Source: a virus | IMG/VR virus record: IMGVR_UViG_3300048908_000031 | Length of the DNA: 49,693 nucleotides | Direction: 5' to 3' (one strand) | In this document: positions 6,016 through 24,422 of the stretch, one piece after another | How the letters are laid out: every line of letters begins with the position of its first letter | Numbering within the stretch: the first letter of the stretch is position 1 | Translations under genes and position numbers: made by a program | Notes under the pieces: generated by a model | Told to the model about the DNA's origin: nothing | The model's input: only the letters and a program-made list of their open reading frames with translations | Databases searched by the model: none

Positions 6016-6033
6016 GGTCCTTATTGATGGACT
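6016..6033. promoter_or_regulatory. Operator-like inverted repeat, site G (minus strand reads AGTCCatcaataaGGACC)
   Basis: GGTCCttattgatGGACT lies immediately downstream of the putative -10 of the phaZ promoter. Confidence 0.55.
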
Positions 6034-6034
6034 C

Positions 6035-6063
6035 ACTATGCGCTGACAATCCGGTTAGGTCAA
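6035..6063 (-). promoter_or_regulatory. Candidate sigma70 promoter of the phaZ cassette (TTGACC-17-CATAGT)
   Basis: The minus strand reads TTGACC (6058-6063), a 17-nt spacer, then CATAGT (6035-6040). It sits between a terminator and the phaZ start. Confidence 0.45.
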
Positions 6064-6084
6064 CAAACAAGTCAACGATTTATG

Positions 6085-6110
6085 CAAAAAGAAACCCGGC
6101 GAACCGGGCG
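6085..6110 (-). terminator. Rho-independent terminator-like hairpin inside the early operon, upstream of the phaZ cassette
   Basis: Minus-strand RNA has a CCCGG-UUCG-CCGGG stem-loop followed by UUUCUUUUU. Confidence 0.5.
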
Positions 6111-6123
6111 ATGTTTGTAGTCG

Positions 6124-6420
6124 TCAGATCGAAAGAAGATCGGTCTTACGGTAGCACTCAGCCGGAAACCCGTACTCGGCACAGCTGCACGCCTCGCCGC
6201 AGCGCTCATCGCGCGATTCAATGCGCATCAAGCCATGCTTGACGGCCATGTCTTGGATGTCGCCGCCGTCAAAGCTGCCGCCCTCGAAGGCGGCGCTGAT
6301 CATTTCGTTGGCGAAGTCCTGTAACGCGTACAGACTGGCAGTTACTCGGTCGAAGTCTTCGGCGCGGACGCATTTGACACCGCGAGCATCATCCGAAAAG
6401 AATTTCTGAACATCACTCAT
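6124..6420 (-). CDS. Hypothetical protein (98 aa) with a Cys-rich C-terminus
   Basis: Start MSDVQKFF with RBS GAGGGA; ends ...ERCGEACSCAEYGFPAECYRK. Confidence 0.55.
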   Translation of the reverse strand: MSDVQKFFSDDARGVKCVRAEDFDRVTASLYALQDFANEMISAAFEGGSFDGGDIQDMAVKHGLMRIESRDERCGEACSCAEYGFPAECYRKTDLLSI

Positions 6421-6565
6421 CACTGATCCCTCTGGTATTTGGCCTGTCGCATCTTGGAGCAGGCCGAGTGGTTGCCGGATGCGCGGACCTTTCCGCACAC
6501 GTCACAGCAGTTTGATATGGCAAGGCGCGGCATGGGTGGGCGCTGGTTGCGGCGCCTGCGTGGGG

Positions 6566-8053
6566 TCATGCGACCTCCTGGTCTCCGATTTCTTTAAGCA
6601 GTCGTCGGCCAATCCAGCGAACTACGGGAACGGCTTTGCTATTTCCGATCGCCTTGTAGCGGGGGCCGTCCGGGCACTCGCTTGCTGGCTTGCCGCGCCA
6701 GGGGATGAGGGTGTAATCGTCGGCCATACCCTGTAGGCGTTCGCACTCGACTGGAGTGAGGCGGCGCACAGAGCTCGTATGCGACACAATGTTGGGGCCC
6801 AGAGCTGAGTCCGTGTTGTCGACCTGTTTGCCGTAGTTGCAGGTCAGCGTCTGGGCCACTTCTCGACATGCAACAATCGGCTGACCGCGCCCGGTGCCAT
6901 CCTCGCTGCCGTCGAAACCCTCAGCCTTCAGCGTGTGGGTGATTTCTCCAGTGATGCACACAGCTACCTGGCCGCCGGCGTTTGCATGGCTGCCTGAGTG
7001 ATTCATTGCCCGCAGAGTGGGTGCAATTACCCCGGCATCGGCGCCGTGATCCTTGCAGGAGAAAGCCAGCACTGCATTTTCCTGGCCGTTGTTTCTGCCC
7101 AGAGCGTGCGCTTGGTCAATGCTTACACAGGGGTCTTGCGTACCGTGTACTACAAAGGCTTCGCTTTCGAAGTCCATCCTTCCGCTGGCGCTGGCGCACG
7201 CATTGCGTGCTGGAGCCACCTCAATTGGGCCGCTGGTGTTGTTCCCCCCGAACACCAGAAGGGATTCTCTCGACTCATGGTCACCATATGGGTTGGTCGT
7301 TAAAGCTGCAGTTACGTGAGGGATGTCGTCGGTGCTGTATCCGCCGTTCTTTCGAGCGCCGCCAGTAAGGGTGCCGGCAACATCTTTCCCCTGGCCTCGG
7401 CGCGGCGCAGTATCCCGGCGCACGCCTTCGCGCTCAAAAAGTACCTCGGTGGGATCGAACCCGTCTCGAGCACTTGCGACAACGAACACACGACGGCGTC
7501 GTTGGGCCAGGCCGAAATATTGGGCGTCCAAGATCCGCCATGCGATTGTTCTTTGGGGTCCATACACACAACCAGCGTCCGGCCACCTTTTCCCTGAAGG
7601 CTGCAGTTCGCAGTCTTCCCCAGCAAGCGCGCCAAGAAAGCATCCGAAGGCGTTGCCTTTGTCGGAAAGGACGCCGGGGACGTTTTCCCAGACAACGACA
7701 GAGGCTGGCAGTCCTCGACTGGCTCGAACATAGTCATTTGCATCTGCAAGCTCCACGTATTTGATGGTGAGGGCGCCGCGGGGGTCGGCAAGTCCTTCGC
7801 GCATGCCGGCCACACTGAATGCCTGGCAGGGGGTTCCGCCGACCAGAACGTCCGGCGCCTCGATCTTCCCAGCAAGGACCATGGTCGCAAGCCGTGTCAT
7901 GTCGCCCAGGTTCGGCGTTTGCGGGTAGTGGTGCGCCAGTACGGCGCTGGGGAATGGATCGATTTCAGCGAACCATGCGGCCTTCATTCCGAGCGGGTGC
8001 CAAGCTACCGTAGCAGCCTCTATTCCACTGCAAATGCTTCCGTAGGTGATCAT
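6566..8053 (-). CDS. DNA (cytosine-5)-methyltransferase
   Basis: Motifs in order: I (YGSICSGIEA), IV (GGTPCQAFSVAG), VI (WENVPG), VIII (QRRRRVFVV), IX (RRLTPVECERLQG) and X (AIGNS). The variable region between VIII and IX is long. Confidence 0.95.
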   Translation of the reverse strand: MITYGSICSGIEAATVAWHPLGMKAAWFAEIDPFPSAVLAHHYPQTPNLGDMTRLATMVLAGKIEAPDVLVGGTPCQAFSVAGMREGLADPRGALTIKYVELADANDYVRASRGLPASVVVWENVPGVLSDKGNAFGCFLGALAGEDCELQPSGKRWPDAGCVYGPQRTIAWRILDAQYFGLAQRRRRVFVVASARDGFDPTEVLFEREGVRRDTAPRRGQGKDVAGTLTGGARKNGGYSTDDIPHVTAALTTNPYGDHESRESLLVFGGNNTSGPIEVAPARNACASASGRMDFESEAFVVHGTQDPCVSIDQAHALGRNNGQENAVLAFSCKDHGADAGVIAPTLRAMNHSGSHANAGGQVAVCITGEITHTLKAEGFDGSEDGTGRGQPIVACREVAQTLTCNYGKQVDNTDSALGPNIVSHTSSVRRLTPVECERLQGMADDYTLIPWRGKPASECPDGPRYKAIGNSKAVPVVRWIGRRLLKEIGDQEVA

Positions 8054-8076
8054 GGGGTCATCCAGTAAAAGAGGGG

Positions 8077-8412
8077 TTATTGCGACAGCGGCGCTAACTG
8101 CGAATCGCTCGGATTCTTCAGCAGCTCTCGGCGCGATTCGTTCTCGAAGCGACGCGCTACGGATTCGCTGATTCGTATTTTGTGGCGCGGCGGGCGAAGG
8201 AACTCAACCAGTTCGGCGTCGGTCATGGCGTCCATCTTGAGGATGGCCAGCTGGATGACTTCGCTGATCTCTGGTGTGCTCGACCGCTCACGGATTCGAT
8301 CCATTGCCGCCTCGATGCCTGGCCGTACCTTATGTCGAAGTTCCTTTTCTGCGAGCTTGCCACGCTTGGCTGCGGCCTTCTGGCTGCGCTGCTGGGTTGT
8401 CATTGCGGTCAT
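8077..8412 (-). CDS. Hypothetical protein (111 aa)
   Basis: ORF in the operon orientation; ATGA overlap with the upstream gene. Confidence 0.55.
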   Translation of the reverse strand: MTAMTTQQRSQKAAAKRGKLAEKELRHKVRPGIEAAMDRIRERSSTPEISEVIQLAILKMDAMTDAELVEFLRPPRHKIRISESVARRFENESRRELLKNPSDSQLAPLSQ

Positions 8413-8696
8413 TTCTTCTTCCTTTTCTTCGGGGTGCCACGGCCATGAGCCAGCCAGCCGGCGCCGATCACCTGGTCACCGACTTCCTTGATCAGTTCGT
8501 CCACGCGTTCATTGACGGCCGGCACCAGGTCGAACATCAGGGCGCTGGGTATCGTCATGGCGTGAACCGTCTTTTCACCGGATGGAAGGGTTAACCACAC
8601 GCTGACTTCCCAGCGAATGGGCTTCGAGGGTCGCGTACCCTTCGGCAGCGTGTGCCCGCCGTTCGGGCCGATGGTGTGCAGCACTGTCATCGTCAT
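8409..8696 (-). CDS. Hypothetical protein (~95 aa) with a Lys-rich C-terminus
   Basis: ORF with internal ATG start MTMTVLHT; the start position is uncertain (8690/8696/8750). Confidence 0.5.
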   Translation of the reverse strand: MTMTVLHTIGPNGGHTLPKGTRPSKPIRWEVSVWLTLPSGEKTVHAMTIPSALMFDLVPAVNERVDELIKEVGDQVIGAGWLAHGRGTPKKRKKK

Positions 8697-8768
8697 GGGA
8701 TAGCCCGCTCGGGGTGATGTTGATGTGGGATTGCCGGCGTCGTGCGGCAACCCTTGAACTGATGCGCT

Positions 8769-9254
8769 TCACTTCTTGAATTCGATCCCGTAGGTGGCGA
8801 TCAATCGTTTCGCCTTGTGATGGCCGATACCGATGTGGTTGGCGGCGAGGGTCTTTTTAATACCGACCCCGGCCAGCGCCTTGAGTCGTTCGGCCAGCTT
8901 GGCGTCCTCGACCGGATCGATAACGCAGGAGCCACGGCTTTTCTGGTTTTTACCGGTACCGGAAACGCACTTGATGCCATTGTCCCGGCAGGTCCGGTTG
9001 ATCCTGTCGAGCGACACGCCCAGACGCATGACCATCTGCGTCTTGCTCATCGTCTTGCCCATTTCGCGGACTTGCTCGACGAATGCGCGGCGATCGCGTT
9101 CTTCCTGCGAGATAAGCGGCTCGATGCGCGGCGGTTTGGGCTGGTCCTGGTACGCCTCGATTTCCTCGACCTTGCCGCCTGAGCGGAAAAATGCTGCCTG
9201 TGCGGCGGCCAGCGCTGATCTGTCGACCTGTCTGATGTCGTTGTATTGGTTCAT
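8769..9254 (-). CDS. Hypothetical protein with two HTH-like segments
   Basis: Start MNQYNDIRQ. The segments are MSKTQMVMRLGVSLDRINRTCRDNGI and GIKKTLAANHIGIGHHKAKRLIATYGI. Confidence 0.5.
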   Translation of the reverse strand: MNQYNDIRQVDRSALAAAQAAFFRSGGKVEEIEAYQDQPKPPRIEPLISQEERDRRAFVEQVREMGKTMSKTQMVMRLGVSLDRINRTCRDNGIKCVSGTGKNQKSRGSCVIDPVEDAKLAERLKALAGVGIKKTLAANHIGIGHHKAKRLIATYGIEFKK

Positions 9255-9308
9255 ATGGCACCCAAAAGAAAGGGCGCTCATTGGCGCCCAGTTGGTTTGA
9301 TTGGTTGG

Positions 9309-9989
9309 TTACTTCTTCAGCGCCTTGACCAGGTACGGGTCGACGTCAGCCTGGCGCAGCAGCCATAACTTGTAATCGGCAGGGATGTCGGCGATTTTCG
9401 ATCCGGCGTGCTTGCCGAAGCGGATCACAGTCGGAATTCGCGCCTCTTCTGAGATTTCCCACAACCTTTCCCAGCTTCCCACTTCCTGGCCAGGCTCAAA
9501 GATCAGACGATTGACGATCGCGATCAGCAGACGGCGGCAGTTGTGCACGTCGTCGAGTGCGGCGTGAGCGTTCTTTAGCAGCTCGCGCGCCTGGTCCCGG
9601 TAGTGCAGGTAGATCATCGCCGATTGGCTGTGCGAGTCGGCATCCGGCCAGAGCGAACGGCTCAGCGCCTGGGTGCAGATGCGTTTCACGTCAGGCTGAC
9701 CGATCACGCTCCAGTCATAGTCGACGTTGTGGCCGATGATGTAGGTGGTGCCGGCGGGAAGTGCGAACTCGGTGTGCGGCGGGCAGTCGACCAGATCTTC
9801 GTCGAGGATATGTGCGGTAGCCAGGGCGCTAAGCTCAATCGGCTTGTTTGGCTTGTAGCGCTGAAGGAATTGCTCAGCGACCGTCAGCGTCTGGATGCTT
9901 TCCAGTCGAAGCCATGCCGCCTCAGTTGGCTGCGGCTCTTTCAGGCCGGTTGTTTCGAAATCGAGAATAATTGCTGTCATGTAGGTCAT
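9309..9989 (-). CDS. DnaQ-like 3'-5' exonuclease with a DUF3820-like C-terminal domain
   Basis: Exo I ILDFETTGL, Exo II GHNVDYDWSV, Exo III HAALDDVHNC. C-terminal FGKHAGSKIADIPADYKLWLL. Confidence 0.85.
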   Translation of the reverse strand: MTYMTAIILDFETTGLKEPQPTEAAWLRLESIQTLTVAEQFLQRYKPNKPIELSALATAHILDEDLVDCPPHTEFALPAGTTYIIGHNVDYDWSVIGQPDVKRICTQALSRSLWPDADSHSQSAMIYLHYRDQARELLKNAHAALDDVHNCRRLLIAIVNRLIFEPGQEVGSWERLWEISEEARIPTVIRFGKHAGSKIADIPADYKLWLLRQADVDPYLVKALKK

Positions 9990-10058
9990 CCGTTTTCAGG
10001 TGTGGTGGGTTGCCGGCAGCTGGGGCGCTGCCGGGTATTGCTCGGGGCGGATTATCGA

Positions 10059-10703
10059 TCAATCAAATGGAATGTCATCGAAGTCCGGCGCGTCGTCCAT
10101 TGGGCCGGTCTGGTAGTTCGTCGACTGGACCTGTTGGTTGCGCAGCTTGCGTACCGGGTTCTTCGCAATGAACGCCATAAAGCCGCCGAGCGACGAAGGC
10201 TTGGTCTGTTTGGACAGGATTTCAGCGGCCATCAGTTCGGTGCTGTACTCGAACGGGGCGGCAATGATCATTCTCTCGCCGATTTCACCACTCTGCTTCT
10301 GGTATTCCTCCTGCTGGAGAACCAGGCCGAGCTTCTTTCCTTTCAGCTCAATGGCGCACTCTTTCTGCTTGGGCACCATGATCTTCTGGTCGTAGTCGTA
10401 AAGCTCGATGGTTTCCTGTTTCCAGTTCAGCGACTTTACCTTGGCGCAAGTCATCAGCGCATTGAGCTGCTTGTACCCGGCCAGGGTTTCCCCGCTGCCG
10501 TTGTGCGTGTACAGGTTGAGTGGCCCGCATTCCTGGCCGTTGTCACCGATAAACATCAGGTTCACGCTTTCGGTGCCTTTCGGGTTTTTCTCGTAGAACG
10601 CCGCAGTAACGGTGCCCATGTACTTGCCGGTTTCCGTGATGCGCTTGCCGCCAGTGTTCGCTTCTTTAGCTGCCTGGGTGTCAAGGTTGTATGCGCGTGC
10701 CAT
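10059..10703 (-). CDS. Phage ssDNA-binding protein (DUF669-like) with an acidic SSB-type tail
   Basis: The C-terminus is DDAPDFDDIPFD. The gene lies directly downstream of a Sak4-like ATPase. Confidence 0.7.
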   Translation of the reverse strand: MARAYNLDTQAAKEANTGGKRITETGKYMGTVTAAFYEKNPKGTESVNLMFIGDNGQECGPLNLYTHNGSGETLAGYKQLNALMTCAKVKSLNWKQETIELYDYDQKIMVPKQKECAIELKGKKLGLVLQQEEYQKQSGEIGERMIIAAPFEYSTELMAAEILSKQTKPSSLGGFMAFIAKNPVRKLRNQQVQSTNYQTGPMDDAPDFDDIPFD

Positions 10704-10784
10704 ATAGTGCCTCCAAGGGCCTTAGTTTCGGTTGTGTTGGTGCTGCTGGGTTGGCTCGACCCATTAACTGTGTCGGGCGGTGAC

Positions 10785-11435
10785 TCAGGCCTGAACAGTT
10801 AGGCCGTAAAACTCGCTTATCGCCTCATCGACCTTCGCCAGGTCATTGTCAATACTTCTGTCTTCGAACATGCCAATTGGGCTCTTGCAGCAGTCCTGGC
10901 CGTTCGTTTGCGTGCTGAACTGGTAATCGCCACTGGTGACCTCAGTCCTGAGTACGATCGTAAAGAACCCCTCAGGCACCAGCGTACTGTCGACGAGCTT
11001 GCCTACCGTTTTCATTCGGACATTCCCAAAGTCGTCGGTCTGCGTGTGGGCCAGGATGTAAACCCGGCGATGGTCTGCCAGGTCACCAGCTGCGTTGAAG
11101 ATGTTCCAAGCGTTTTTGCCGATGTCGGAGAACTTCGTGTAGCCAGTTTCACTGCTCCGGGTCATCAGCTCATTGACCATCACCGCTTGGTAGTCATCGA
11201 TCACGACCACATCATGGGGTGAGTTGCGCATGATCTTCTCAATCATGGCCGGGTTGTCGGTTCGGATGACGTTGCCCGCATCCTTCATGGTTGCTCGGAC
11301 CTTCCAGCCTGGCGCCTTGAACGGCAATGGCTTCTTGATGCACTGGATGACCAGGGTTTTCTTCGGATCAAGGTTCCGAAGGCTCGTTGATTTACCGCTG
11401 CCAGAGTTGCCTAAAATCAGAGTCGCGATGCTCAT
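10785..11435 (-). CDS. Sak4-like RecA-fold ATPase (single-strand annealing/recombination)
   Basis: Walker A LILGNSGSGKST and Walker B-like VVVIDDY. The context is DUF1351, then this ATPase, then DUF669 SSB, then the exonuclease. Confidence 0.75.
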   Translation of the reverse strand: MSIATLILGNSGSGKSTSLRNLDPKKTLVIQCIKKPLPFKAPGWKVRATMKDAGNVIRTDNPAMIEKIMRNSPHDVVVIDDYQAVMVNELMTRSSETGYTKFSDIGKNAWNIFNAAGDLADHRRVYILAHTQTDDFGNVRMKTVGKLVDSTLVPEGFFTIVLRTEVTSGDYQFSTQTNGQDCCKSPIGMFEDRSIDNDLAKVDEAISEFYGLTVQA

Positions 11436-11444
11436 TTGTCTGCC

Positions 11445-11588
11445 TCAGATTGGTTGCCTATCCCATTCCCGCTCAATGCGGGCGGCTTCGTCTTCATATT
11501 CCCGGCGCTGCTCACCCGTGAACTGCTCGGGCGAGAAGGCGCCGACCGTGGCCCAGTCGAGCTGGGCGGTCATGCGTGGCGAGTTCAT
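11445..11588 (-). CDS. Small hypothetical protein (42-47 aa), not in the ORF track
   Basis: Product is MNSPRMTAQLDWATVGAFSPEQFTGEQRREYEDEAARIEREWDRQPI. It fills the gap between two genes on the same strand. Confidence 0.35.
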   Translation of the reverse strand: MNSPRMTAQLDWATVGAFSPEQFTGEQRREYEDEAARIEREWDRQPI

Positions 11589-11596
11589 GCTGAGCC

Positions 11597-12706: not shown

Positions 12707-12767
12707 GCGTGTATCTCCCGCGCCATCCGGGACCGGGGCGCTGCTTGAGTTAGTTGGGTGGAGGGGG

Positions 12768-13025
12768 TTACTTGGCGGCTTTCTTGAGCGCTTGAGTCAG
12801 CATTCGGTAGTAGCGTGCGAACCGCTCCGGCTGTTCATCCTCGAATCGCCAGCCAGGATCTCGGCACCAACCACATTCTTCCTCTGAGCAATCGTGCGCA
12901 GGTTCGTCCCGGATATGCTTCTTGATGATCGCCCGTGCCTCGGCATTGATCGCTGCGGGCTTCGTGAGGAATCGCCGTCGAGCTGTAGGAGCGAAGTAGA
13001 CCTTCGCCTGCTGGGTGGCAATCAT
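12768..13025 (-). CDS. Hypothetical protein (~85 aa)
   Basis: ORF with RBS GGGGAG before MIATQQ. Confidence 0.5.
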   Translation of the reverse strand: MIATQQAKVYFAPTARRRFLTKPAAINAEARAIIKKHIRDEPAHDCSEEECGWCRDPGWRFEDEQPERFARYYRMLTQALKKAAK

Positions 13026-13027
13026 GG

Positions 13028-13183
13028 TCAGTCTCCCCAATATGACCAGTCTTCATGCAGAGCATCTTTCGGCGACCAGCCTGGGAATGTCTCATGAAGG
13101 CTTTCGACGTAAGACCAATTCGCCCAGCCCATGGTCTTGTGCATGTACAGGTAGCCTCGAAGGATCCAAATGAACTTGCTCAT
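13028..13183 (-). CDS. Small hypothetical protein (51 aa), Trp-rich, not in the ORF track
   Basis: Product is MSKFIWILRGYLYMHKTMGWANWSYVESLHETFPGWSPKDALHEDWSYWGD. It has an ATGA overlap upstream, and its stop is 2 nt before the next start. Confidence 0.45.
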   Translation of the reverse strand: MSKFIWILRGYLYMHKTMGWANWSYVESLHETFPGWSPKDALHEDWSYWGD

Positions 13184-14397: not shown

Positions 14398-14426
14398 GTG
14401 ATACCTCCTTTGAGTGGGCGTTGTGG

Positions 14427-14861: not shown

Positions 14862-14874
14862 GACTTACTCCTTC

Positions 14875-15106: not shown

Positions 15107-15274
15107 CTACCAGGCGCCGAACCAAGCGCCAGTGCCGTGAACGATGGCCACCGGGAAGAACAATGCCCCAGCCACCAGAAAGCCCCAGCTCGCCGCCTTG
15201 AGGCAGACGATGACGTGGGTGAACCAGGCGGCGATCGCCCAGAGCAGGACAAACAAGCCGATGTGATGCTTCAT
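15107..15274 (-). CDS. Small two-TM membrane protein (55 aa), first gene of the leftward operon, not in the ORF track
   Basis: Product is MKHHIGLFVLLWAIAAWFTHVIVCLKAASWGFLVAGALFFPVAIVHGTGAWFGAW with RBS GGAG. It is preferred over the overlapping 73-aa ORF 15031..15252. Confidence 0.5.
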   Translation of the reverse strand: MKHHIGLFVLLWAIAAWFTHVIVCLKAASWGFLVAGALFFPVAIVHGTGAWFGAW

Positions 15275-15282: not shown

Positions 15283-15300
15283 ACTCCGTAATTACGGACC
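15283..15300. promoter_or_regulatory. Operator-like inverted repeat, site A (ACTCCgtaattacGGACC; core TCCGTAATTACGGA is a perfect 14-bp palindrome)
   Basis: Lies 9 bp upstream of the first leftward gene. An additional GGACC-N4-GGTCC hairpin (15296-15309) abuts it, and a TTGACC -35-like hexamer is on the minus strand at 15310-15315. Confidence 0.6.
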
Positions 15301-15369
15301 TGCGGGTCCGGTCAAGGTCGATTCTTTCCCGCTGCAGCCTTTCTCAAAGCCGCACTGGTGAAAGGTGTT

Positions 15370-15404
15370 CCCAGGCCCGCTACTGGCGACGGCCTGGGTT
15401 TATT
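15370..15404 (+). terminator. Stable hairpin (CCCAGGCC-N13-GGCCTGGG) followed by TTTATT on the plus strand. It also directly follows the stop of a possible minus-strand small ORF.
   Basis: An 8-bp GC stem is read directly. The T-tract occurs only in the plus orientation, so function and orientation are uncertain. Confidence 0.4.
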
Positions 15405-15522
15405 GCGTAAGCGGTGTTGGCCAGTTGCCCGCTGCTGATTGCAGGTCTGGCCAGTCGTCTTCGTGGTGGGCTTCGAGCTTCCTACTCATGGCGTCAATCA
15501 GCATCTGTTCGCCATGGATCAC
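15400..15522 (-). CDS. Possible small acidic protein (40 aa, GTG start; 34 or 29 aa from internal ATGs)
   Basis: SD AAGGA lies 4 nt before the GTG. Product is VIHGEQMLIDAMSRKLEAHHEDDWPDLQSAAGNWPTPLTQ. The stop is immediately followed by the 15370-15398 hairpin. Confidence 0.3.
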   Translation of the reverse strand: MIHGEQMLIDAMSRKLEAHHEDDWPDLQSAAGNWPTPLTQ

Positions 15523-15618
15523 AGGTCCTTACAACATGCACGCTACAGCTCTGAATGCCCGATTTAGTGGGGCAGGGTGCATGAGGTCCGGCGTTCCCAG
15601 CCGAGGCTATCGGGATCG

Positions 15619-15792
15619 CTAATTCAAATCTGTTCGCCGCAACCCGCTACTGGCGTCGGTCACTGGCTTGAATCTTCTGTCATTCCAGTCGCGGGCCTTT
15701 CGGCTTGTCTCCCACTGGATAACGGGTTTTGGTGCTTTACGCTGCGCACCCAGGTCCGTTGCCAACCCTCTGAACTGTTGAGGCCGGTTCAT
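15619..15792 (-). CDS. Possible small basic protein (57 aa; 69 aa from TTG at 15828) in the position where CI normally sits
   Basis: Product is MNRPQQFRGLATDLGAQRKAPKPVIQWETSRKARDWNDRRFKPV... with a weak HTH-like GLATDLGAQRKA segment. Operator site B lies just upstream. The ORF has three AGA codons and only moderate GC3. Confidence 0.3.
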   Translation of the reverse strand: MNRPQQFRGLATDLGAQRKAPKPVIQWETSRKARDWNDRRFKPVTDASSGLRRTDLN

Positions 15793-15844: not shown

Positions 15845-15862
15845 AGTCCGTATGTCTGGACT
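15845..15862. promoter_or_regulatory. Operator-like inverted repeat, site B (AGTCCgtatgtctGGACT, exact arms)
   Basis: Read directly; intergenic, within the regulatory region. Confidence 0.6.
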
Positions 15863-15957
15863 CGATGGATGTAAAGTTACATGCAGGCAAAAGAATGCGC
15901 AAGGGGTATTTCAAACATTTTTCGTAGCGCGTGAAATGAACCGGGCGCCGATATGGT

Positions 15958-15975
15958 AGTCCATCAAAAAGGACG
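15958..15975. promoter_or_regulatory. Operator-like inverted repeat, site H (AGTCCatcaaaaaGGACG)
   Basis: Abuts the -35 of the candidate rightward promoter. Its spacer is nearly identical to that of site G. Confidence 0.55.
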
Positions 15976-16033: not shown

Positions 16034-16264
16034 ATGGCTATTCGACATAAAGGCCTTTTGGCCTGGCTGAAAACGGCAACGGACGAAGAGATCCAGGAAG
16101 CTGGAGTTACTCGCGACCATTTGAAATTGATCGGCTATGGTTACCGCAAGGCATCGCCTGAAGTAGCAGCGGTAGCCGAGGTGGTCACCAAAGGCGTCGT
16201 CACCCGCAAGGAGCTGTTCCCCGACACCTGGGAGCGGATCTGGCCCGAGCTGAAAGCAGCATGA
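16034..16264 (+). CDS. Cro/YdaS-like HTH transcriptional regulator
   Basis: 76 aa from MAIRHKGLLAWLK with RBS AAAGGA. The C-terminal ...KGVVTRKELFPDTWERIWPEL is typical of the YdaS/Cro-like family. Confidence 0.65.
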   Translation: MAIRHKGLLAWLKTATDEEIQEAGVTRDHLKLIGYGYRKASPEVAAVAEVVTKGVVTRKELFPDTWERIWPELKAA

Positions 16265-16316: not shown

Positions 16317-16523
16317 ATGGCATACGATGACAAAATCCACCGGCATGACCGGCAAGTGAAGATCATGCTCAACACGGGCATCTTCGATGACCTTCGCGAC
16401 GTGGCCGTGGCCAACGGCCTGCAGCACAGCGTCCTCGCTCGCGAAGTGATCGAAGCCTTCCTCAAGGCTGTGGAAGAAACCGGCAAACTCCCCCTGGGCC
16501 TGGATCAAAGAAAACGCGCCTGA
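16317..16523 (+). CDS. Ribbon-helix-helix (CopG/Arc-like) DNA-binding protein
   Basis: VKIMLNTGIFDDLRDVAVANGLQHSVLAREVIEAFL shows a beta-strand followed by two helices. Confidence 0.5.
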   Translation: MAYDDKIHRHDRQVKIMLNTGIFDDLRDVAVANGLQHSVLAREVIEAFLKAVEETGKLPLGLDQRKRA

Positions 16524-16548
16524 TCACGTAATTAAGGACTAATACAAG

Positions 16549-16806
16549 ATGCCCGGAAAAAATGCAGTTGTGATGGACTTCAGCGCTTCTTCTCAGCAGA
16601 GACTGGAGCGCATAGCGTCAATGTTGGGCATTACCGTGGATGATCTGGCCGACGCGGCTCTGACCATCGGCCTACCGGGCATCAAGCAGGCGCTGCAAAG
16701 CGCCTGTGATACCAGCCCCGTGGAAAAGGTTCAGGTGGGTGGCGTGATGGCCAATGTGGTGTGTTTGTGGAGCAAGCAGCCTCTCGCCAGGGAGGCCAGT
16801 GGCTGA
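16549..16806 (+). CDS. Hypothetical protein (85 aa)
   Basis: ORF with an SD overlapping a half-operator (ATCACgtaattaaGGACT at 16523-16540). Confidence 0.5.
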   Translation: MPGKNAVVMDFSASSQQRLERIASMLGITVDDLADAALTIGLPGIKQALQSACDTSPVEKVQVGGVMANVVCLWSKQPLAREASG

Positions 16807-16812: not shown

Positions 16813-16830
16813 AGTCCGTAATTCTGGACT
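16813..16830. promoter_or_regulatory. Operator-like inverted repeat, site C (AGTCCgtaattctGGACT, exact arms)
   Basis: Intergenic, between the 16806 stop and the terminator at 16871-16900. Confidence 0.6.
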
Positions 16831-16870
16831 GGTAGACCGGCTACAGGAAAGATGCAAGAATCACCAGACG

Positions 16871-16900
16871 AAAAAAAGCCACCCGGCAAGGTGGCTTCTC
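16871..16900. terminator. Hairpin AGCCACC-cggcaa-GGTGGCT flanked by A7 upstream and TTCTC downstream
   Basis: The U-tract is much better for a minus-strand transcript (TTTTTTT) than for the plus strand. Confidence 0.5.
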
Positions 16901-20710: not shown

Positions 20711-20883
20711 CCCCTCCCCAAGCAATGCAGGTCGCCCGCCTCCAGTCCCAAGGCTTCGCGCTGACCCAGGAACTCAAGGACGCCGTCAGGATGGCTCGCG
20801 GCGCTGACATTCGGATCGTGATGAGCGACGGCACGACTAAGCGTGGTCACCATGAGAGCAGGCCGCACAAGGAGAAAGTGTGA
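20707..20883 (+). CDS. Small hypothetical protein (58 aa), not in the ORF track
   Basis: Product is MTPPQAMQVARLQSQGFALTQELKDAVRMARGADIRIVMSDGTTKRGHHESRPHKEKV. It has an ATGA overlap upstream and a TGATG overlap downstream. Confidence 0.45.
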   Translation: MTPPQAMQVARLQSQGFALTQELKDAVRMARGADIRIVMSDGTTKRGHHESRPHKEKV

Positions 20884-21683
20884 TGGAACACATAAATTTG
20901 ATGCATGGAGACTGCCTGGAACTGATGAAAGCGGTACCGGACTGCAGTGTCGACATGATCTGTGCGGATCTTCCCTATGGAACAACGCAGTGCGCATGGG
21001 ACGTGATCATCGCCTTCGAACCACTCTGGCGCGAATACCTGCGGATCGCCAAGCCCGAGGCGGCCATCGTGCTGTGCGCGGCTCAACCGTTCGCCTCGAT
21101 GGTAGTGGCGAGCAACCCGAAGCACTACCGGTACGAGTGGATTTGGGAGAAGGGAAACGCCACCGGATTCCTGAATGCCAAGAAGCAGCCGTTGCGAGCG
21201 CATGAGAGCGCGCAAGTGTTCTACCGCAAGCAGCCGGTCTTCAATCCGCAGATGTCCACAGGGCACGAACGGAAAACCAGCAAGCGCAAGACGGTGAACT
21301 CCGAGTGCTACGGCAAGGCCTTGTCGCTCACTGAATACGACTCGACAGAGCGGTACCCGCGCTCGGTCCAGTTCTTCTCGAGCGACAAGCAGTCGGGATC
21401 GTTCCATCCAACGCAAAAGCCAGTGGCGTGGATGGAGTTCCTGATCAATACCTACAGCAACCCTGGCCAGACGGTCATGGATAACTCCATGGGGAGCGGT
21501 ACCACGGGTGTGGCTTGCGTGAATCTTGGCCGTAAATTCATCGGAATTGAGAAAGACCTCGACGAGCACGGGAACTCTCTCGGGTATATGGAAATCGCGA
21601 AAAAACGAATTAGTGATGCGATCGCCATTCGCGATACTCCGGTACCGCAACTCGATATGTTCAAGGCGGTGGCTCATGGCTGA
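20883..21683 (+). CDS. Beta-class N6-adenine/N4-cytosine DNA methyltransferase
   Basis: Motif IV variant CADLPYG, then FHPTQKP and the AdoMet motif VMDNSMGSGTTGVACVNLGRKFIGIEKD. Confidence 0.9.
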   Translation: MEHINLMHGDCLELMKAVPDCSVDMICADLPYGTTQCAWDVIIAFEPLWREYLRIAKPEAAIVLCAAQPFASMVVASNPKHYRYEWIWEKGNATGFLNAKKQPLRAHESAQVFYRKQPVFNPQMSTGHERKTSKRKTVNSECYGKALSLTEYDSTERYPRSVQFFSSDKQSGSFHPTQKPVAWMEFLINTYSNPGQTVMDNSMGSGTTGVACVNLGRKFIGIEKDLDEHGNSLGYMEIAKKRISDAIAIRDTPVPQLDMFKAVAHG

Positions 21684-22099: not shown

Positions 22100-22117
22100 A
22101 GTCCCTAACCACGGACT
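22100..22117. promoter_or_regulatory. Operator-like inverted repeat, site E (AGTCCctaaccacGGACT, exact arms)
   Basis: Occupies the -35 position, 6 nt upstream of a perfect TATAAT. Confidence 0.6.
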
Positions 22118-22123: not shown

Positions 22124-22129
22124 TATAAT
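22124..22129 (+). promoter_or_regulatory. Perfect TATAAT -10 hexamer with no recognisable -35
   Basis: Read directly, 34 nt upstream of the proposed start of the Ref-like gene. Confidence 0.4.
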
Positions 22130-22561: not shown

Positions 22562-23016
22562 TGAAAGTAACAGATGCGGAAATTCTGAAAGCTATTTGGC
22601 GCGAACAAATCAAGAAAACAGCGCATGGGGTAATTGATAATTACATCGGCGGAACCAAGTCGGTTTCTTATGGCCAATTCCGCCAGGGGTATGCGCAAAA
22701 CCTCTACATGATAAGTCGTCAGCAGCTGGGCCTGCCGCTGAGTAAAGGTCATCTGGGTCGACGCCTGAAGGCTTTGATCAGTTCCGGTGGTCCATTGCAG
22801 TGGGATGGCAGGGAAGGTAATGCATACCACTTCAAGTGCAAGGCCAGTGATGATGTGTATGCCGCCGCCCGTGAGTGGTGGGCAGGTAAGGGCGTGCCGA
22901 CAGGGTTTGATGAAGAGAACAAACGCACACGTACGGCCCTCGTCGACGACTTCGACGGCAAGGTCGCGCAGCTTCAGCAGGACCTGCTGTCCAAGTTCGG
23001 GAGCATGCAGCCATGA
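22561..23016 (+). CDS. Hypothetical protein (151 aa)
   Basis: ORF with a TGATG overlap; locally lower GC. Confidence 0.5.
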   Translation: MKVTDAEILKAIWREQIKKTAHGVIDNYIGGTKSVSYGQFRQGYAQNLYMISRQQLGLPLSKGHLGRRLKALISSGGPLQWDGREGNAYHFKCKASDDVYAAAREWWAGKGVPTGFDEENKRTRTALVDDFDGKVAQLQQDLLSKFGSMQP

Positions 23017-23159
23017 TGGATACGACTGAGCTGAAGAAGGCCGCAGAGGCTGCAACACAAGGCGATTGGCACCACTATAAACATGGCGTCATCAAGGGCG
23101 GCCCGGTCGTCCAGTTCGTCAATGGCTTCGAGAGGGATTGCGCATGTCTTCAGGCGTAA
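23013..23159 (+). CDS. Small hypothetical protein (48 aa), Ea22-like N-terminal motif
   Basis: Product is MMDTTELKKAAEAATQGDWHHYKHG..., with an ATGA overlap. Confidence 0.3.
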   Translation: MMDTTELKKAAEAATQGDWHHYKHGVIKGGPVVQFVNGFERDCACLQA

Positions 23160-23572
23160 CCGCAAGGAAGCCCAAGGCGATCGCCCTGCCGGTGCCGACG
23201 GAGCATGTCGAACAGGTGAAAGTTGTGACGTGGTTTCGCCTGCAATACCCAGCGATCAAGGAGTTGCTGATTGCGATCCCGAATGGCGCACATCTGGCCG
23301 GGACGCCGATCCAGCGAGCCAAGAAGATTCAGCGCATGAAGGCCGAAGGGTTCACCACTGGGGTGGCGGACCTGTTCCTGATGAAGCCGTCTTTCGGGTA
23401 TTCCGGCCTATGGATCGAAATGAAGCGACTCAAGTATTCGCCATCCGACGTGAGCGACGACCAGAAGGCGTTCCAGGTGAGAGCGCTGGATAACGGGTAT
23501 CAGGCAGTGGTGTGCGGCGGCTTCGAGGCTGCGCGGGAAGCGATCAAGGCATATTTGCAGGGGGTGGTATGA
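23144..23572 (+). CDS. VRR-NUC domain nuclease
   Basis: TEHVEQVKVVTWF...IPNG...GVADLFL...GLWIEMKR shows a PD-(D/E)xK signature. Confidence 0.8.
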   Translation: MSSGVTARKPKAIALPVPTEHVEQVKVVTWFRLQYPAIKELLIAIPNGAHLAGTPIQRAKKIQRMKAEGFTTGVADLFLMKPSFGYSGLWIEMKRLKYSPSDVSDDQKAFQVRALDNGYQAVVCGGFEAAREAIKAYLQGVV

Positions 23573-23778
23573 GCAAGTGGGTGGCGCGGGTCCGCTGCAA
23601 ATGCGGTCATGCATATTCAGGGGAAATATTCAGTGCATCTGACTTTCGGATAATCCAAGTATGCCCAACCTGCGGGAGCAAGGAGGAATGGCGCGACACG
23701 GTAGAGCGCTGGGTATCAACCTCGAGGTGGAATAGTCCGCGCACATGGGGTACTGGCTATTGGGAGGTTAAGGCATGA
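23569..23778 (+). CDS. Zinc-ribbon small protein (69 aa)
   Basis: CKCGH ... CPTCG; ATGA overlaps. Confidence 0.5.
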   Translation: MSKWVARVRCKCGHAYSGEIFSASDFRIIQVCPTCGSKEEWRDTVERWVSTSRWNSPRTWGTGYWEVKA

Positions 23779-24314
23779 AATATCTAAACATCGTCACAGC
23801 AGTGGTCCGGGCACTATCGACCGACAACATGGGCGGCGGCATGAGCTTCGAGCCTCGGGTGCAGGATACGAAACTGAAGGGCGAGATCACCGGGAAGGAT
23901 GACCAGCTGCTGCACGACAGTATGATCCGGGCTCGCCTGCATGCCACACTGGCCCCGGAGCACTGGGAGATCCTGAAGGCCAAGTTCAGCCCAGACCTGG
24001 ACCACAAGCGCGAATCCATCCGGGCGGTGCGTACCAGGGTGAAGACTCCGGCTCCGGAACGGTTCCGTGATGCCGCGGTGCTGACCTGGGCGATGCCGAA
24101 GCTGCCAGGCAAGGACGGGAAGCGGTCGAACTCTACGCTGCCGGATCATTGGTATTCGATGGACTCATGGACTGATGATCCGGTGCCGGTCAGAACTCAG
24201 CAGCACTGGAGACGACAAATCACCAAGGGGCTGGAGGATGAAGTGAACAAGGCGCTGGCCATCGCTCAGGAGGCTCTGGAGCCGCTGGGTCTGTTCGCGG
24301 AGCGGGTGGCATGA
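23775..24314 (+). CDS. Hypothetical protein; positional candidate for the late-gene regulator (Q-like)
   Basis: It is the last gene before a strong promoter/terminator pair upstream of the lysis and structural genes. No motif was recognised. Confidence 0.3.
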   Translation: MKYLNIVTAVVRALSTDNMGGGMSFEPRVQDTKLKGEITGKDDQLLHDSMIRARLHATLAPEHWEILKAKFSPDLDHKRESIRAVRTRVKTPAPERFRDAAVLTWAMPKLPGKDGKRSNSTLPDHWYSMDSWTDDPVPVRTQQHWRRQITKGLEDEVNKALAIAQEALEPLGLFAERVA

Positions 24315-24332
24315 AATTATTTCTGATGGCCT

Positions 24333-24361
24333 ATTGTCATTCCTTGCGCACTTGCGTATAT
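24333..24361 (+). promoter_or_regulatory. Strong sigma70 promoter TTGTCA-17-TATATT (PR'-like late promoter)
   Basis: Hexamers and the 17-nt spacer are read directly, 19 nt after the stop of the Q-position gene. Confidence 0.6.
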
Positions 24362-24404
24362 TTTCCCCATCCTGTCGTTTCTGCGTTCAGGGCTTGAATA
24401 TATA

Positions 24405-24422
24405 GAGTCCTTAATCAGGGAC
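24405..24422. promoter_or_regulatory. Operator-like inverted repeat, site D (AGTCCttaatcagGGACT, exact arms)
   Basis: Lies about 40-55 nt downstream of the late promoter. Confidence 0.6.

What the first reader, a model, noticed from the sequence alone, without database searches (positions are those of the whole stretch)
6016..24422. AGTCC-N8-GGACT inverted repeat recurs at least 7 times, only in intergenic promoter-proximal positions: a phage-wide operator regulon without an obvious repressor
Sites found:
- Exact arms: 15845-15862 (gtatgtct spacer), 16813-16830 (gtaattct), 22100-22117 (ctaaccac) and 24405-24422 (ttaatcag).
- One-mismatch copies: 15283-15300 (ACTCC..GGACC; core TCCGTAATTACGGA is a perfect palindrome), 15958-15975 (..GGACG) and 6016-6033 (GGTCC..GGACT).
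- Half-site: 16523-16540.

For a 10-specified-base palindrome in about 49.6 kb, roughly 0.05 exact hits are expected with equal base frequencies, and four are seen. My scan of every AGTCC in the coding sequence found no partner arm at N8.

Every copy is next to a control point:
- 9 bp before the first leftward gene;
- upstream of the CI-position ORF;
- abutting the -35 of the cro-like promoter;
- just before the terminator that precedes rha;
- replacing the -35 of a TATAAT promoter in the nin region;
- about 40 nt downstream of the late promoter;
- over the phaZ promoter start.

Conserved arms with variable spacers argue for a dimeric DNA-binding protein rather than an RNA hairpin. Even so, a nut/boxB-like RNA role cannot be excluded, since sites lie just after promoters and before terminators.
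Basis: seen in the sequence. Interest (0 to 1): 0.8.

Follow-up and report, generated by a model that had tools for sequence, protein, structure and literature searches.

The report
Phage-wide operator for a small RHH regulator
A complete Pseudomonas phage genome that lacks the usual CI repressor carries seven conserved copies of an 18-bp palindrome at its main promoters and leaders, most likely read by a small Mnt-like ribbon-helix-helix protein encoded next to two of them, which suggests an unusual way of wiring a phage's master switch.

Summary
AGTCC-N8-GGACT occurs 4 times exactly (0.04 expected). A weight matrix finds 7 strong sites, all in the 8.3% of the genome that is non-coding. The "spacer" is the degenerate centre of an 18-bp palindrome, about AGTCCCTAATTAGGGACT.

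All positions are conserved in mosaic relatives. The GTCC/GGAC boxes stay invariant while the centres drift.

The motif tracks a 68-aa protein (16317-16523) with weak ribbon-helix-helix and Mnt-like signals:
- Strong sites: 19 in 60 kb of close relatives, 78 in 728 kb of distant loci with this protein, 0 in 668 kb of related loci without it.
- Other subtypes of the protein family carry different palindromes after the same cassette.
- P22's Mnt operator has the same GTCC/GGAC boxes.

Best reading (about 0.5): duplex-DNA operators for this protein, spread genome-wide in a lineage with no CI.

Main rival (about 0.2): a nut-like RNA hairpin. It is supported by the leader and pre-terminator layout, boxA in relatives, and an imperfect copy in a phage lacking the protein.

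Binding has not been shown. The finding is a new variant of a known kind.

The parts
6016..6033 (.). Site 1, GGTCCTTATTGATGGACT. It lies 1 nt downstream of the -10 of the leftward esterase-gene promoter, so it spans the predicted transcription start.
   Evidence: PWM 20.8. The promoter TTGACC-17-CATAGT at 6063..6035 on the minus strand was found by the scan. The position is conserved in L003 and L006.
15283..15300 (.). Site 2, ACTCCGTAATTACGGACC. It lies 8 nt upstream of the ATG of the first leftward gene (55 aa, 15274..15107).
   Evidence: PWM 16.7. Orthologous copies occur in L003, L006 and L060.
15845..15862 (.). Site 3, AGTCCGTATGTCTGGACT, the PL-side site. It lies 11 nt downstream of a predicted leftward promoter: TTGCGC at 15902..15897, a 17-nt spacer, TAACTT at 15879..15874.
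   Evidence: Exact match. Conserved in all relatives, with the adjacent CGATGGA..AAAGTTAC block. The promoter was read by eye, is weak, and was not called by the scan.
15958..15975 (.). Site 4, AGTCCATCAAAAAGGACG, the PR-side site. It abuts the predicted PR -35: TTGCGC at 15976-15981, an 18-nt spacer, AATAAT at 16000-16005.
   Evidence: PWM 19.2. The right arm is GGACG in every relative, while the centre differs between them.
16813..16830 (.). Site 5, AGTCCGTAATTCTGGACT. It lies 7 nt after the stop codon of the second small gene and 40 nt before the terminator.
   Evidence: Exact match. This is the one position shared with about 40 distant loci, where it is usually a tandem pair.
22100..22117 (.). 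Site 6, AGTCCCTAACCACGGACT, in the nin region. It is preceded by an A-tract and followed 6 nt later by TATAAT (22124-22129), so it occupies the -35/spacer position.
   Evidence: Exact match. The arrangement of site, 6-8 nt, then TATAAT/TATACT/TATATT/TATGAT is conserved in L003, L006, L060 and L059.
24406..24423 (.). Site 7, AGTCCTTAATCAGGGACT, in the late leader. The order is: promoter at 24334-24362, conserved GAATATATAG, the site, Proteo-phage-1 RNA at 24440-24538, a terminator at about 24620-24643, then the lysis genes.
   Evidence: Exact match. Promoter and terminator come from the scan and the RNA from Rfam. The layout is conserved in L003, L006, L058 and L060 although the upstream genes differ.
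16317..16523 (+). RHH1, 68 aa (phrog_4113). This is the candidate reader of the palindrome, and its N-terminal segment MAYDDKIHRHDRQVKIML is nearly invariant.
   Evidence: Co-occurrence. Family members hit RHH-type Pfam families. hhalign against Arc/Mnt gives P=0.004, in register. N-terminal conservation is shown.
16549..16806 (+). Second small gene of the cassette, 85 aa, RHH-like by pattern only. It is poorly conserved.
   Evidence: Identity to the window is 51-95%, and it is undetectable in L060 and L063, which carry the same sites.
16034..16264 (+). Cro-like HTH protein, 76 aa, the first gene of the rightward operon.
   Evidence: Hits phrog_35 and, weakly, YdaS. It is absent from most distant loci that keep the motif.
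16870..16899 (.). Bidirectional terminator-like hairpin: an A7 run, GCCACC-CGGCAA-GGTGGC, then TTCTC. It lies between the cassette and rha, and the stronger T-run is on the minus strand.
   Evidence: Read from the sequence. Conserved in relatives and in the distant group.
15358..15653 (-). Element X, a conserved non-coding core in the PL leader between sites 3 and 2. It is probably a structured RNA.
   Evidence: Present in 53 IMG/VR contigs and 3 deposited phages. Not coding. Compensatory pairs on the leftward strand. No Rfam hit.

Best explanation
The element is a duplex-DNA operator, an 18-bp palindrome close to AGTCCCTAATTAGGGACT. It has two inverted GTCC boxes around an A/T-rich centre.

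Its reader is the phage's own 68-aa protein at 16317-16523 (RHH1). RHH1 is probably a ribbon-helix-helix protein of the Arc/Mnt type, binding as a dimer of dimers with one beta-ribbon per box.

The ancestral unit is a cassette found right after cro in many Pseudomonas prophages: RHH1, a second small gene, one or two operators, a terminator, then an Rha/Bro/ANT-type or replication gene.

The window's lineage is a complete genome with no CI-type repressor and no tyrosine integrase. In that lineage the operator has been copied to seven or eight control points:
- both sides of the divergent early promoters;
- the leader of the first leftward gene;
- the cassette end;
- a nin-region promoter;
- the late leader;
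- an accessory esterase promoter.

RHH1 is made from the rightward early operon. It would then feed back on its own operon and mostly repress, by promoter occlusion or roadblock. This is how Mnt works at Pant in P22, where the operator lies 6 nt after the -10.

**Shown:** the motif, its placement, its conservation, and its co-occurrence with RHH1.

**Inferred:** the fold, the binding, the stoichiometry, and the sign of regulation at each site.
For: **The motif is real and specific.**
- Counts far exceed shuffles, only the N8 spacing occurs, and 7 of 7 sites are non-coding.

**Positional conservation in mosaic relatives.**
- L003, L005, L006, L060, L063 and L010 keep the sites with invariant GTCC/GGAC boxes, while the centre differs at almost every orthologous site.

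**Features that fit duplex DNA, not a stem.**
- T7/A12 are conserved (78%).
- The adjacent positions 6/13 are often non-complementary: A/A, C/C, T/T, G/A.

**Some sites cannot be a complete hairpin in the local transcript, if the predicted promoters are right.**
- Site 4 lies upstream of the PR -35.
- Site 1 starts 1 nt after a -10 that the scan called.
- Site 6 is followed 6-8 nt later by a conserved -10.

**Association with RHH1.** Strong sites (PWM at least 17):
- 19 in 60 kb of window-group loci;
- 78 in 728 kb of distant RHH1a loci;
- 0 in 668 kb made up of 53 related loci chosen without reference to RHH1, other subtypes, and the complete PfDIW6 genome.

**Other candidate proteins are eliminated.**
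- The Cro-like protein is absent from the distant group.
- The second small gene is undetectable in L060 and L063.
- Rha is present in control loci without sites.
- The Q-position protein is uncorrelated with the late site.
- The resolvase is absent from the distant group.

**RHH1 itself.**
- It is the most conserved of the three early proteins (73-100%).
- Its N-terminal 18 residues are nearly identical in homologues that are only about 50% identical overall.

**Lineage-specific palindromes.** Other subtypes with different N-terminal segments carry different palindromes at the same place:
- AGGCC-N7-GGCCT;
- GGCTC-N6-GAGCC;
- GCCC-N6-GGGC;
- AGTCCC-NGA-GGGACT.

**Fold evidence.**
- Family members hit NikA-like (best E 4.6e-5), DUF6290, RHH_3 and BrnA.
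- hhalign against Arc/Mnt gives P=0.004, with the beta-strand and helix A in register.

**Precedents.**
- P22 Omnt, AGGTCCACGGTGGACCT, has the same GTCC/GGAC boxes and lies 6 nt after the -10 of Pant.
- RHH ribbons read 4-bp boxes separated by AT-rich spacers at a fixed centre-to-centre distance (PMC3413123).
- ArtA is an RHH master regulator with many promoter targets on a plasmid (PMC2777438).
Against: - No binding data exist.
- The fold assignment is weak:
  - Pfam finds nothing for the window protein itself.
  - The hhalign probability is only 8%.
  - The AlphaFold monomer model is uninformative, with pLDDT 57.
  - There is no sequence match in the PDB.
- The cassette operator is physically linked to RHH1, so co-occurrence there is partly linkage. 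The dispersed copies occur in only one lineage, and every member of that lineage also has the Cro-like protein.
- An imperfect PL-leader copy (AGTCCCTGTTGGGTGACT, PWM 14.3) occurs in PfDIW6, L073 and L105, which have no RHH1-family protein.
- The b2 subtype has a different N-terminal segment yet keeps the same arms with a centre 3 bp shorter. A hairpin tolerates that more easily than a fixed dimer-of-dimers geometry does.
- The tandem cassette sites are 26 bp apart, about 2.5 helical turns, and the PL-PR pair is spaced 112-146 bp in different relatives. Neither suggests face-of-helix cooperativity.
- A repressor site in the late leader of a phage that must lyse needs an extra assumption about how repression is relieved.
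- The PL and PR promoter assignments were made by eye and were not called by the scan.
Confidence: 0.5

Rival explanations
1. The palindrome works as an RNA hairpin in nascent leader transcripts. It would be a boxB-like part of nut-type antitermination or processing signals, read by an unidentified phage or host factor, that lets RNA polymerase pass the terminators that follow.
For: - Three positions are conserved between the window group and a deeply diverged CI-containing group:
  - just downstream of PL/OL;
  - just before the first rightward terminator;
  - in the late leader before a terminator.

  This is the lambda nutL/nutR/qut layout.
- An exact boxA-like GCTCTTTAACA lies on the leftward strand 14-25 nt past the PL-side copy in L005, L007, L063, L015 and PfDIW6.
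- The PL copy is followed by a conserved structured leader, element X.
- The late copy neighbours the Proteo-phage-1 RNA.
- An imperfect PL copy exists in phages without RHH1.
- The b2 variant keeps the arms but shortens the loop.
- Across subtypes both arms change together.
- The hairpins would fold at -5.3 to -9.2 kcal/mol, with z scores of -2.2 to -3.5.
Against: - Among about 60 distinct a-type sites the arms never show compensatory substitutions, and the loops are not conserved. This is the reverse of boxB.
- T7/A12 are conserved while positions 6/13 are frequently unpaired.
- By the predicted promoters, sites 4, 1 and 6 lie outside or across the start of the local transcript.
- The window itself has no boxA, and PseuP_222 has boxA without the palindrome.
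- No arginine-rich N-like protein was found. The first leftward gene encodes a 55-aa membrane-type protein.
- Mismatches in the imperfect copies show no G-U bias on the transcript strand.
Confidence: 0.2
2. The palindrome is a duplex-DNA operator, but in the window's lineage it is read by a different phage protein. That could be the Cro-like HTH protein (16034-16264), or the second small protein (16549-16806), alone or as a hetero-complex with RHH1.
For: - Every window-group genome with dispersed sites also encodes the Cro-like protein, and sites 3 and 4 flank its promoter region.
- The second small gene always accompanies RHH1, and the cassette operator starts 7 nt after its stop codon.
Against: - The Cro-like protein is missing from the distant loci that keep strong sites, and it is only 50-64% identical in L063 and L060, which have identical boxes.
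- The second small protein is undetectable by tblastn in L060, L063 and the distant group, and its putative beta-strand is not conserved.
- Other conserved blocks lie between sites 3 and 4 and could be the Cro operators.
Confidence: 0.12
3. The palindrome is bound by a host Pseudomonas protein, a global regulator or nucleoid protein, that these phages exploit.
For: - An imperfect copy persists in phages without RHH1.
- The boxes are invariant across phages that appear to come from different Pseudomonas species.
Against: - The arms change with the subtype of the adjacent phage protein.
- There are no strong sites in 668 kb of related Pseudomonas phage DNA lacking RHH1a.
- I know of no Pseudomonas regulator with this site (from my own knowledge, not tested).
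- Host genomes could not be scanned here.
Confidence: 0.07

Closest known systems
P22 immI: the Mnt (and Arc) ribbon-helix-helix repressors, the operator Omnt at Pant, and the antirepressor gene ant
   Same: - Small N-terminally determined RHH-type regulators are encoded next to an antirepressor-type gene (Rha, Bro or ANT here).
- The operator is a palindrome with the same GTCC/GGAC boxes. Omnt is AGGTCCACGGTGGACCT in X01916 at 337-353.
- Omnt lies just downstream of a -10, as sites 1, 3 and 7 do here.
- RHH1 residues 9-42 align with Mnt residues 3-37.
- The b2 subtype's palindrome has Omnt's 5-nt centre.
   Different: - The centre is 8 nt instead of 5.
- The genes lie in the early rightward operon right after cro, not in a separate immI region.
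- The cassette operator lies downstream of the regulator genes, not at their promoter.
- There are seven or eight dispersed operators instead of one.
- The genome has no CI/C2 repressor.
- Homology to Mnt is only weakly supported.
ArtA of the Staphylococcus plasmid pSK41 (PMC2777438); also viral RHH regulators such as SSV1 F55 and SIRV1 SvtR (these two from my own knowledge)
   Same: A small RHH protein with an N-terminal extension acts as the master regulator of a mobile element through operators at many promoters.
   Different: - The host, operator sequence and family are unrelated.
- ArtA binds a 10-bp site, mostly as a single dimer.
- Binding has been shown for ArtA but not here.
Lambda nut sites (boxA plus the boxB hairpin) with N, and HK022 put RNAs
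   Same: - The placement matches: just after PL, before the first rightward terminator, and in a leader.
- boxA follows the PL copy in several relatives.
- The arms form a short hairpin.
   Different: - The loop is not conserved and the stem sequence is invariant.
- There is no boxA in the window, and none at the rightward or late copies.
- No N-like protein was found.
- Several copies sit at or upstream of promoters.
Lambda CI/Cro operators (OL, OR) and CII-activated promoters
   Same: - The sites flank divergent early promoters.
- The RHH1 family occupies the cII position right after cro.
- A few dispersed sites stand where a -35 would be; site 6 is an example.
   Different: - There is no tripartite operator array, no HTH repressor gene between the promoters, and only single sites.
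- CII sites are direct TTGC repeats (from my own knowledge), not palindromes.
- RHH1 is not homologous to CII.

Membership tests
Arc/MetJ-type (ribbon-helix-helix) repressor-operator systems, such as P22 Mnt-Omnt | The reader protein has the ribbon-helix-helix fold: an N-terminal beta-strand followed by two helices, forming an obligate dimer. | tested here: inconclusive
   - Family members hit NikA-like (3 members, best E 4.6e-5), DUF6290 (3), RHH_3 and BrnA.
- hhalign against Arc/Mnt gives P=0.004 in register, but the probability is only 8%.
- The window protein alone gives no Pfam or PDB hit.
- The AlphaFold monomer model has pLDDT 57.
Arc/MetJ-type (ribbon-helix-helix) repressor-operator systems, such as P22 Mnt-Omnt | The operator is made of short (about 4-bp) boxes, direct or inverted, at a fixed centre-to-centre distance of about one helical turn, with AT-rich DNA between them. 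| tested here: met
   - The GTCC and GGAC boxes are invariant and the centre is A/T-rich.
- The 7-bp half-sites AGTCCCT and AGGGACT are centred 11 bp apart.
- The geometry follows the description in PMC3413123.
Arc/MetJ-type (ribbon-helix-helix) repressor-operator systems, such as P22 Mnt-Omnt | Specificity resides in the N-terminal residues, so protein and operator should co-vary. | tested here: inconclusive
   - The a-type N-terminus and the boxes are conserved together across about 50% overall divergence.
- Subtypes e, f and g have different N-termini and different palindromes.
- Subtype b2 has a different N-terminus but the same arms.
Arc/MetJ-type (ribbon-helix-helix) repressor-operator systems, such as P22 Mnt-Omnt | The protein binds the operator specifically and represses the overlapping promoter. 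| not testable with these tools
   This needs EMSA or footprinting and reporter assays.
Lambda-type nut site (N-dependent antitermination) | A boxB hairpin with a conserved loop, read by an arginine-rich N protein. | tested here: not met
   - The loops differ at nearly every orthologous site while the stems are invariant.
- No N-like ORF was found.
Lambda-type nut site (N-dependent antitermination) | A boxA element lies next to the hairpin. | tested here: not met
   - The window has no boxA-like sequence within 2 mismatches near any site.
- Some relatives have one, but only at the PL-side copy.
Lambda-type nut site (N-dependent antitermination) | The site lies in transcribed leaders, downstream of early promoters and upstream of terminators. 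| tested here: inconclusive
   - This holds for sites 3, 5 and 7 and for the distant group.
- By the predicted promoters it does not hold for sites 1, 4 and 6.
Lambdoid CI/Cro immunity operators | Arrays of adjacent operators overlap the divergent PL/PR/PRM promoters, with an HTH repressor gene between them. | tested here: not met
   - No CI-type or S24 protein was found in the ORFs scanned across the complete genome.
- The gap between the promoters holds a non-coding element.
- There is a single site on each side.
- The distant phages have their own CI operators in addition to the palindrome.

The most novel reading that the evidence does not exclude
The palindrome could be the loading site of a single, unified antitermination system. 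A small RHH-type protein would act from DNA sites, or from the hairpins they encode, in the PL leader, before the first rightward terminator, and in the late leader. It would then make RNA polymerase resistant to termination on all three operons, replacing both N and Q.

The layout is conserved between the CI-less and the CI-containing groups. It is tied to boxA, to the structured leader element X, and to the Proteo-phage-1 RNA. -10-like hexamers sit directly next to several copies: TATATA-g-site, CATAGT-g-site, and site-6nt-TATAAT. These are compatible with loading at sigma-dependent pauses.
Probability: 0.12. Interest if true: 0.85.

Novelty: new variant of a known kind. Interest (0 to 1): 0.55.

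Why it matters
If RHH1 reads these sites, this phage lineage runs its early, nin, late and accessory promoters from one Mnt-like ribbon-helix-helix protein instead of the CI/Cro pair. That would be a differently wired master switch in an otherwise lambdoid genome.

It would also show how a one-operator cassette, widespread after cro in Pseudomonas prophages and currently annotated only as hypothetical, can expand into a genome-wide regulon.

The work yields concrete material for follow-up:
- an 18-bp site and a 68-aa protein for a simple binding test;
- a natural series of protein subtypes with different palindromes, useful for studying the RHH recognition code;
- two conserved leader RNAs that may tie the system to antitermination: element X, which is not in Rfam, and Proteo-phage-1.

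Tried and rejected
**Dead ends**
- Scanning genome contigs with the Cro-like protein found nothing.
- No deposited phage is a close relative.
- A literature search for 'Proteo-phage-1' found no paper.
- The AlphaFold monomer model of RHH1 was too poor to use for a fold search.
- phmmer and profile searches against PDB sequences gave only chance-level hits.
- L119, picked up with a 20-mer from the Proteo-phage-1 RNA, is a chance coding match.

**Element X as a gene**
- I considered X as a hidden CI or N-like gene and rejected that.
- No frame is consistent on either strand.
- Indels are not multiples of three, and the translations are implausible.

- The Q-position 179-aa protein: L006 and L060 have the late site without it, and L059 has the protein without a late site.
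- Rha: present in control loci without sites, and replaced by Bro/KilAC-type genes in distant loci that keep the sites.
- The small serine recombinase: absent from the distant group, and promoter-proximal sites make no sense as crossover sites.

**Other ideas rejected or unresolved**
- The palindrome as a fixed 5' extension of the Proteo-phage-1 RNA. In L027 the order is RNA, tRNA, then palindrome.
- The 17-codon ORF across the terminator after site 5. Its frame is not conserved in L005 (read by eye).
- I looked for a leftward PRE-like promoter next to the cassette site and found no convincing -10.
- DNA looping between sites 3 and 4. Their spacing is 112-146 bp in relatives, with no constant helical phase.

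Full report
**1. The observation**

AGTCC-N8-GGACT matches exactly at 15845, 16813, 22100 and 24406-24423. That is four matches against a mean of 0.04 in shuffles. Allowing one mismatch adds 6016, 15958 and a chance-level coding hit at 32880.

The spacing is strikingly specific. Every AGTCC...GGACT pair within 30 nt has N8. GTCC-Nx-GGAC gives six hits at x=8 and none or one at every other spacing.

It separates seven sites (scores 16.7-23.8) from everything else (11.4 or lower).

The window is a complete circular-type assembly with a 127-bp terminal overlap. All seven sites lie in the 8.3% of it that is non-coding (P about 3e-8).

The spacer is not free. The symmetrised profile reads AGTCCcTaa|ttAgGGACT, with T7/A12 at 78%. 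The element is an 18-bp palindrome whose centre is degenerate in the window.

**2. The genome**

This is a Pseudomonas (fluorescens/protegens-group) lambdoid phage with no close deposited relative.

The leftward arm (about 680-15274) carries:
- Sak4, SSB and an exonuclease;
- two DNA methyltransferases;
- a DpdA-like transglycosylase;
- an esterase;
- a small serine recombinase.

The rightward arm runs as follows:
- It starts with a Cro-like HTH protein (16034-16264), a 68-aa protein (16317-16523, called RHH1 here) and an 85-aa protein (16549-16806).
- A terminator-like hairpin follows.
- Then come Rha, an O-like initiator, a methyltransferase, NinB, a RecA-dependent nuclease and a RusA-like resolvase.
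- A 179-aa protein sits in the Q position.
- It ends with the late promoter, an Rfam Proteo-phage-1 RNA (24440-24538), a terminator and the lysis genes.

No CI-type repressor and no tyrosine integrase were found.

**3. Where the sites sit**

| Site | Position |
|---|---|
| 1 | Starts 1 nt after the -10 of the scan-called esterase promoter TTGACC-17-CATAGT |
| 2 | 8 nt upstream of the first leftward gene |
| 3 | 11 nt downstream of a weak, by-eye leftward promoter |
| 4 | Abuts the -35 of the by-eye PR (TTGCGC-18-AATAAT) |
| 5 | Between the cassette and the terminator |
| 6 | Preceded by an A-tract and followed 6 nt later by TATAAT |
| 7 | Follows the conserved GAATATATAG, about 40 nt after the late promoter |

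Sources.

**4. Conservation**

Relatives were found through the Cro-like protein and RHH1: L003/L004, L005, L006, L007-L011 and L060-L063. They are mosaic, with different replication, nin and Q-position genes.

They keep all the site positions. L006 has all seven, and L060 has eight. The GTCC/GGAC boxes are invariant, while the centre differs at almost every orthologous site.

**5. A distant group and the cassette**

About 40 IMG/VR loci encode an RHH1 homologue that is only about 50% identical overall. Its N-terminal segment is nearly identical: MAYDDKAHRHDHQVKVRL against MAYDDKIHRHDRQVKIML.

These phages have a normal CI (S24 type) and Cro. After cro they carry the same cassette:
- RHH1;
- a second small gene;
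- then, usually, two strong palindromes 26 bp apart (for example GATCCCTAATTAGGGACC and AGTCCCTCATAAGGGACG);
- a terminator;
- an Rha or Bro/KilAC gene.

They also have an imperfect copy immediately downstream of PL/OL. Some have a further copy in the late leader, between a tRNA and a terminator, ahead of the holin gene.

**6. Which protein?**

| Group | Strong sites (PWM at least 17) |
|---|---|
| Window-group loci | 19 in 60 kb |
| Distant RHH1a loci | 78 in 728 kb |
| Controls | 0 in 668 kb |

The controls are 53 related loci selected by a 28-mer of the PL-leader element (so independently of RHH1), six loci of other subtypes, and the complete PfDIW6 genome.

Other candidate proteins do not fit:
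- The Cro-like protein is absent from the distant group and only 50-64% identical in L063 and L060.
- The 85-aa protein is undetectable in L060, L063 and the distant group.
- Rha occurs in control loci without sites.
- The Q-position protein is uncorrelated with the late site.
- The resolvase is absent from the distant group.

RHH1 is the most conserved of the early proteins, at 73-100%.

**7. What RHH1 is**

The window protein alone gives no Pfam or PDB match. Members of a 15-sequence family alignment hit NikA-like (three members, best E 4.6e-5), DUF6290 (three), RHH_3 and BrnA. To my knowledge these are all ribbon-helix-helix families.

Profile-profile comparison with P22 Arc/Mnt and the PfDIW6 Arc-family proteins aligns RHH1 residues 9-42 with Mnt residues 3-37, in register. 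P is 0.004 but the probability is only 8%. The AlphaFold monomer model is uninformative.

The family is widespread in Pseudomonas prophages. It always sits right after cro, and some members are labelled 'predicted DNA-binding protein'.

**8. Subtypes and their palindromes**

Subtypes with different N-terminal segments carry different palindromes right after the second small gene:

| Subtype | Palindrome |
|---|---|
| e | AGGCC-N7-GGCCT |
| f | GGCTC-TCAAGG-GAGCC |
| g | GCCC-GAATAA-GGGC |
| b2 | AGTCCC-(C/T)GA-GGGACT |

Each is essentially a single copy per locus.

The genome-wide spread is particular to the window's CI-less lineage.

**9. Comparison with P22**

The P22 immI record shows Omnt, AGGTCCACGGTGGACCT, 6 nt after the -10 of Pant. 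It has the same GTCC/GGAC boxes with a 5-nt centre, which is the spacing of the b2 variant.

RHH ribbons are reported to read 4-bp boxes, direct or inverted, separated by AT-rich spacers at a fixed centre-to-centre distance (PMC3413123). ArtA of pSK41 is an RHH master regulator with many promoter targets (PMC2777438).

**10. The RNA rival**

Evidence in its favour:
- The leader and pre-terminator layout resembles nutL/nutR/qut.
- An exact boxA-like GCTCTTTAACA follows the PL-side copy in several relatives, including PfDIW6.
- PfDIW6, L073 and L105 carry that imperfect PL copy without any RHH1-family protein.
- The b2 variant shortens the centre by 3 nt.
- The hairpins would fold at -5.3 to -9.2 kcal/mol.

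Evidence against:
- The arms never show compensatory change within the a-type set.
- The loops are not conserved.
- T7/A12 are conserved while positions 6/13 are often unpaired.
- By the predicted promoters, sites 1, 4 and 6 are not complete hairpins in the local transcript.
- The window has no boxA.
- No N-like protein is present.

**11. Verdict**

A nut-like RNA role is the main rival (about 0.2). Nothing here shows binding or the sign of regulation. I file it as a new variant of a known kind: an Mnt/Arc-type repressor-operator pair, multiplied into a genome-wide regulon in a CI-less lambdoid phage.

Noticed in passing
window 15358-15653, minus strand: Element X is a conserved non-coding core of about 200-280 nt in the PL leader.
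- It is shared with 53 IMG/VR contigs and with phages PseuP_222, UFJF_PfDIW6 and MT835699.
- It is not coding.
- RNAalifold on 52 sequences gives 49 pairs, 8 of them with compensatory changes, plus many G-U pairs on the leftward strand.
- It is absent from Rfam 15.

It is a candidate new structured leader RNA.
   Followed up: partly
L005 4389, L007 443, L063 137, L015 6717, L117 (PfDIW6) 33549, L001 (PseuP_222) 3475; none in the window: An exact boxA-like GCTCTTTAACA lies on the leftward strand between the PL-side palindrome and element X in many relatives. This suggests rrn- or N-type antitermination of the early-left operon. PseuP_222 has it without the palindrome.
   Followed up: partly
window 24440-24538, plus strand: An Rfam Proteo-phage-1 RNA (RF03044, 55.9 bits) lies in the late leader between the late promoter and a terminator.
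- It is also found in L006, L060 and L027.
- In L027 two terminators precede it and a tRNA follows it.
- The block CCATCCTGTC after the late promoter is conserved between the two groups.

Its function is unknown, and no paper in the library names it.
   Followed up: partly
window 16870-16899 and 16972-17009: The terminator between the cassette and rha has its strong T-run on the minus strand.

A second inverted repeat, CGCGCCAC-N20-22-GTGGCGCG, sits inside the 5' end of the rha/bro/ant genes. The window copy has one mismatch. The repeat is conserved across lineages even though the encoded proteins differ after about 30 residues.

Together with weak minus-strand Rfam hits (RNAI and isrD, E 0.7-1), this hints at a sar-like antisense RNA or at another operator.
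   Followed up: partly
window 1-127 and 49567-49693: A 127-bp direct terminal overlap shows that the window is a complete circular-type assembly of about 49.6 kb. It has no CI-type repressor and no tyrosine integrase, only a 206-aa resolvase-family serine recombinase at 1281-1901. The lifestyle (temperate, plasmid-like or lytic) is unclear.
   Followed up: partly
window 2252-2977 (minus), 6566-8053 (minus), 20880-21683 (plus): A queuine tRNA-ribosyltransferase/DpdA-like protein and two DNA methyltransferases suggest that the phage modifies its DNA, possibly with 7-deazaguanine.
   Followed up: no
window 12751-12834, plus strand: A tRNA-Arg (anticodon TCT) is embedded, on the opposite strand, among the leftward early genes.
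   Followed up: no
L015 9499-9708 and 10001-10207; L016-L055 about 9550-9740; L123-L129: The RHH1 family has at least seven subtypes, and up to two paralogues occur per phage. They always sit right after cro, which is the cII position of lambda. The family is widespread in Pseudomonas prophages and annotated only as hypothetical or 'Prophage PSSB64-02'.
   Followed up: partly
L117 (PfDIW6) 22660-24150: PfDIW6 carries a classic P22-type immI region with Mnt-like and Arc-like proteins and an antirepressor. Its operators are unrelated to the palindrome studied here.
   Followed up: no
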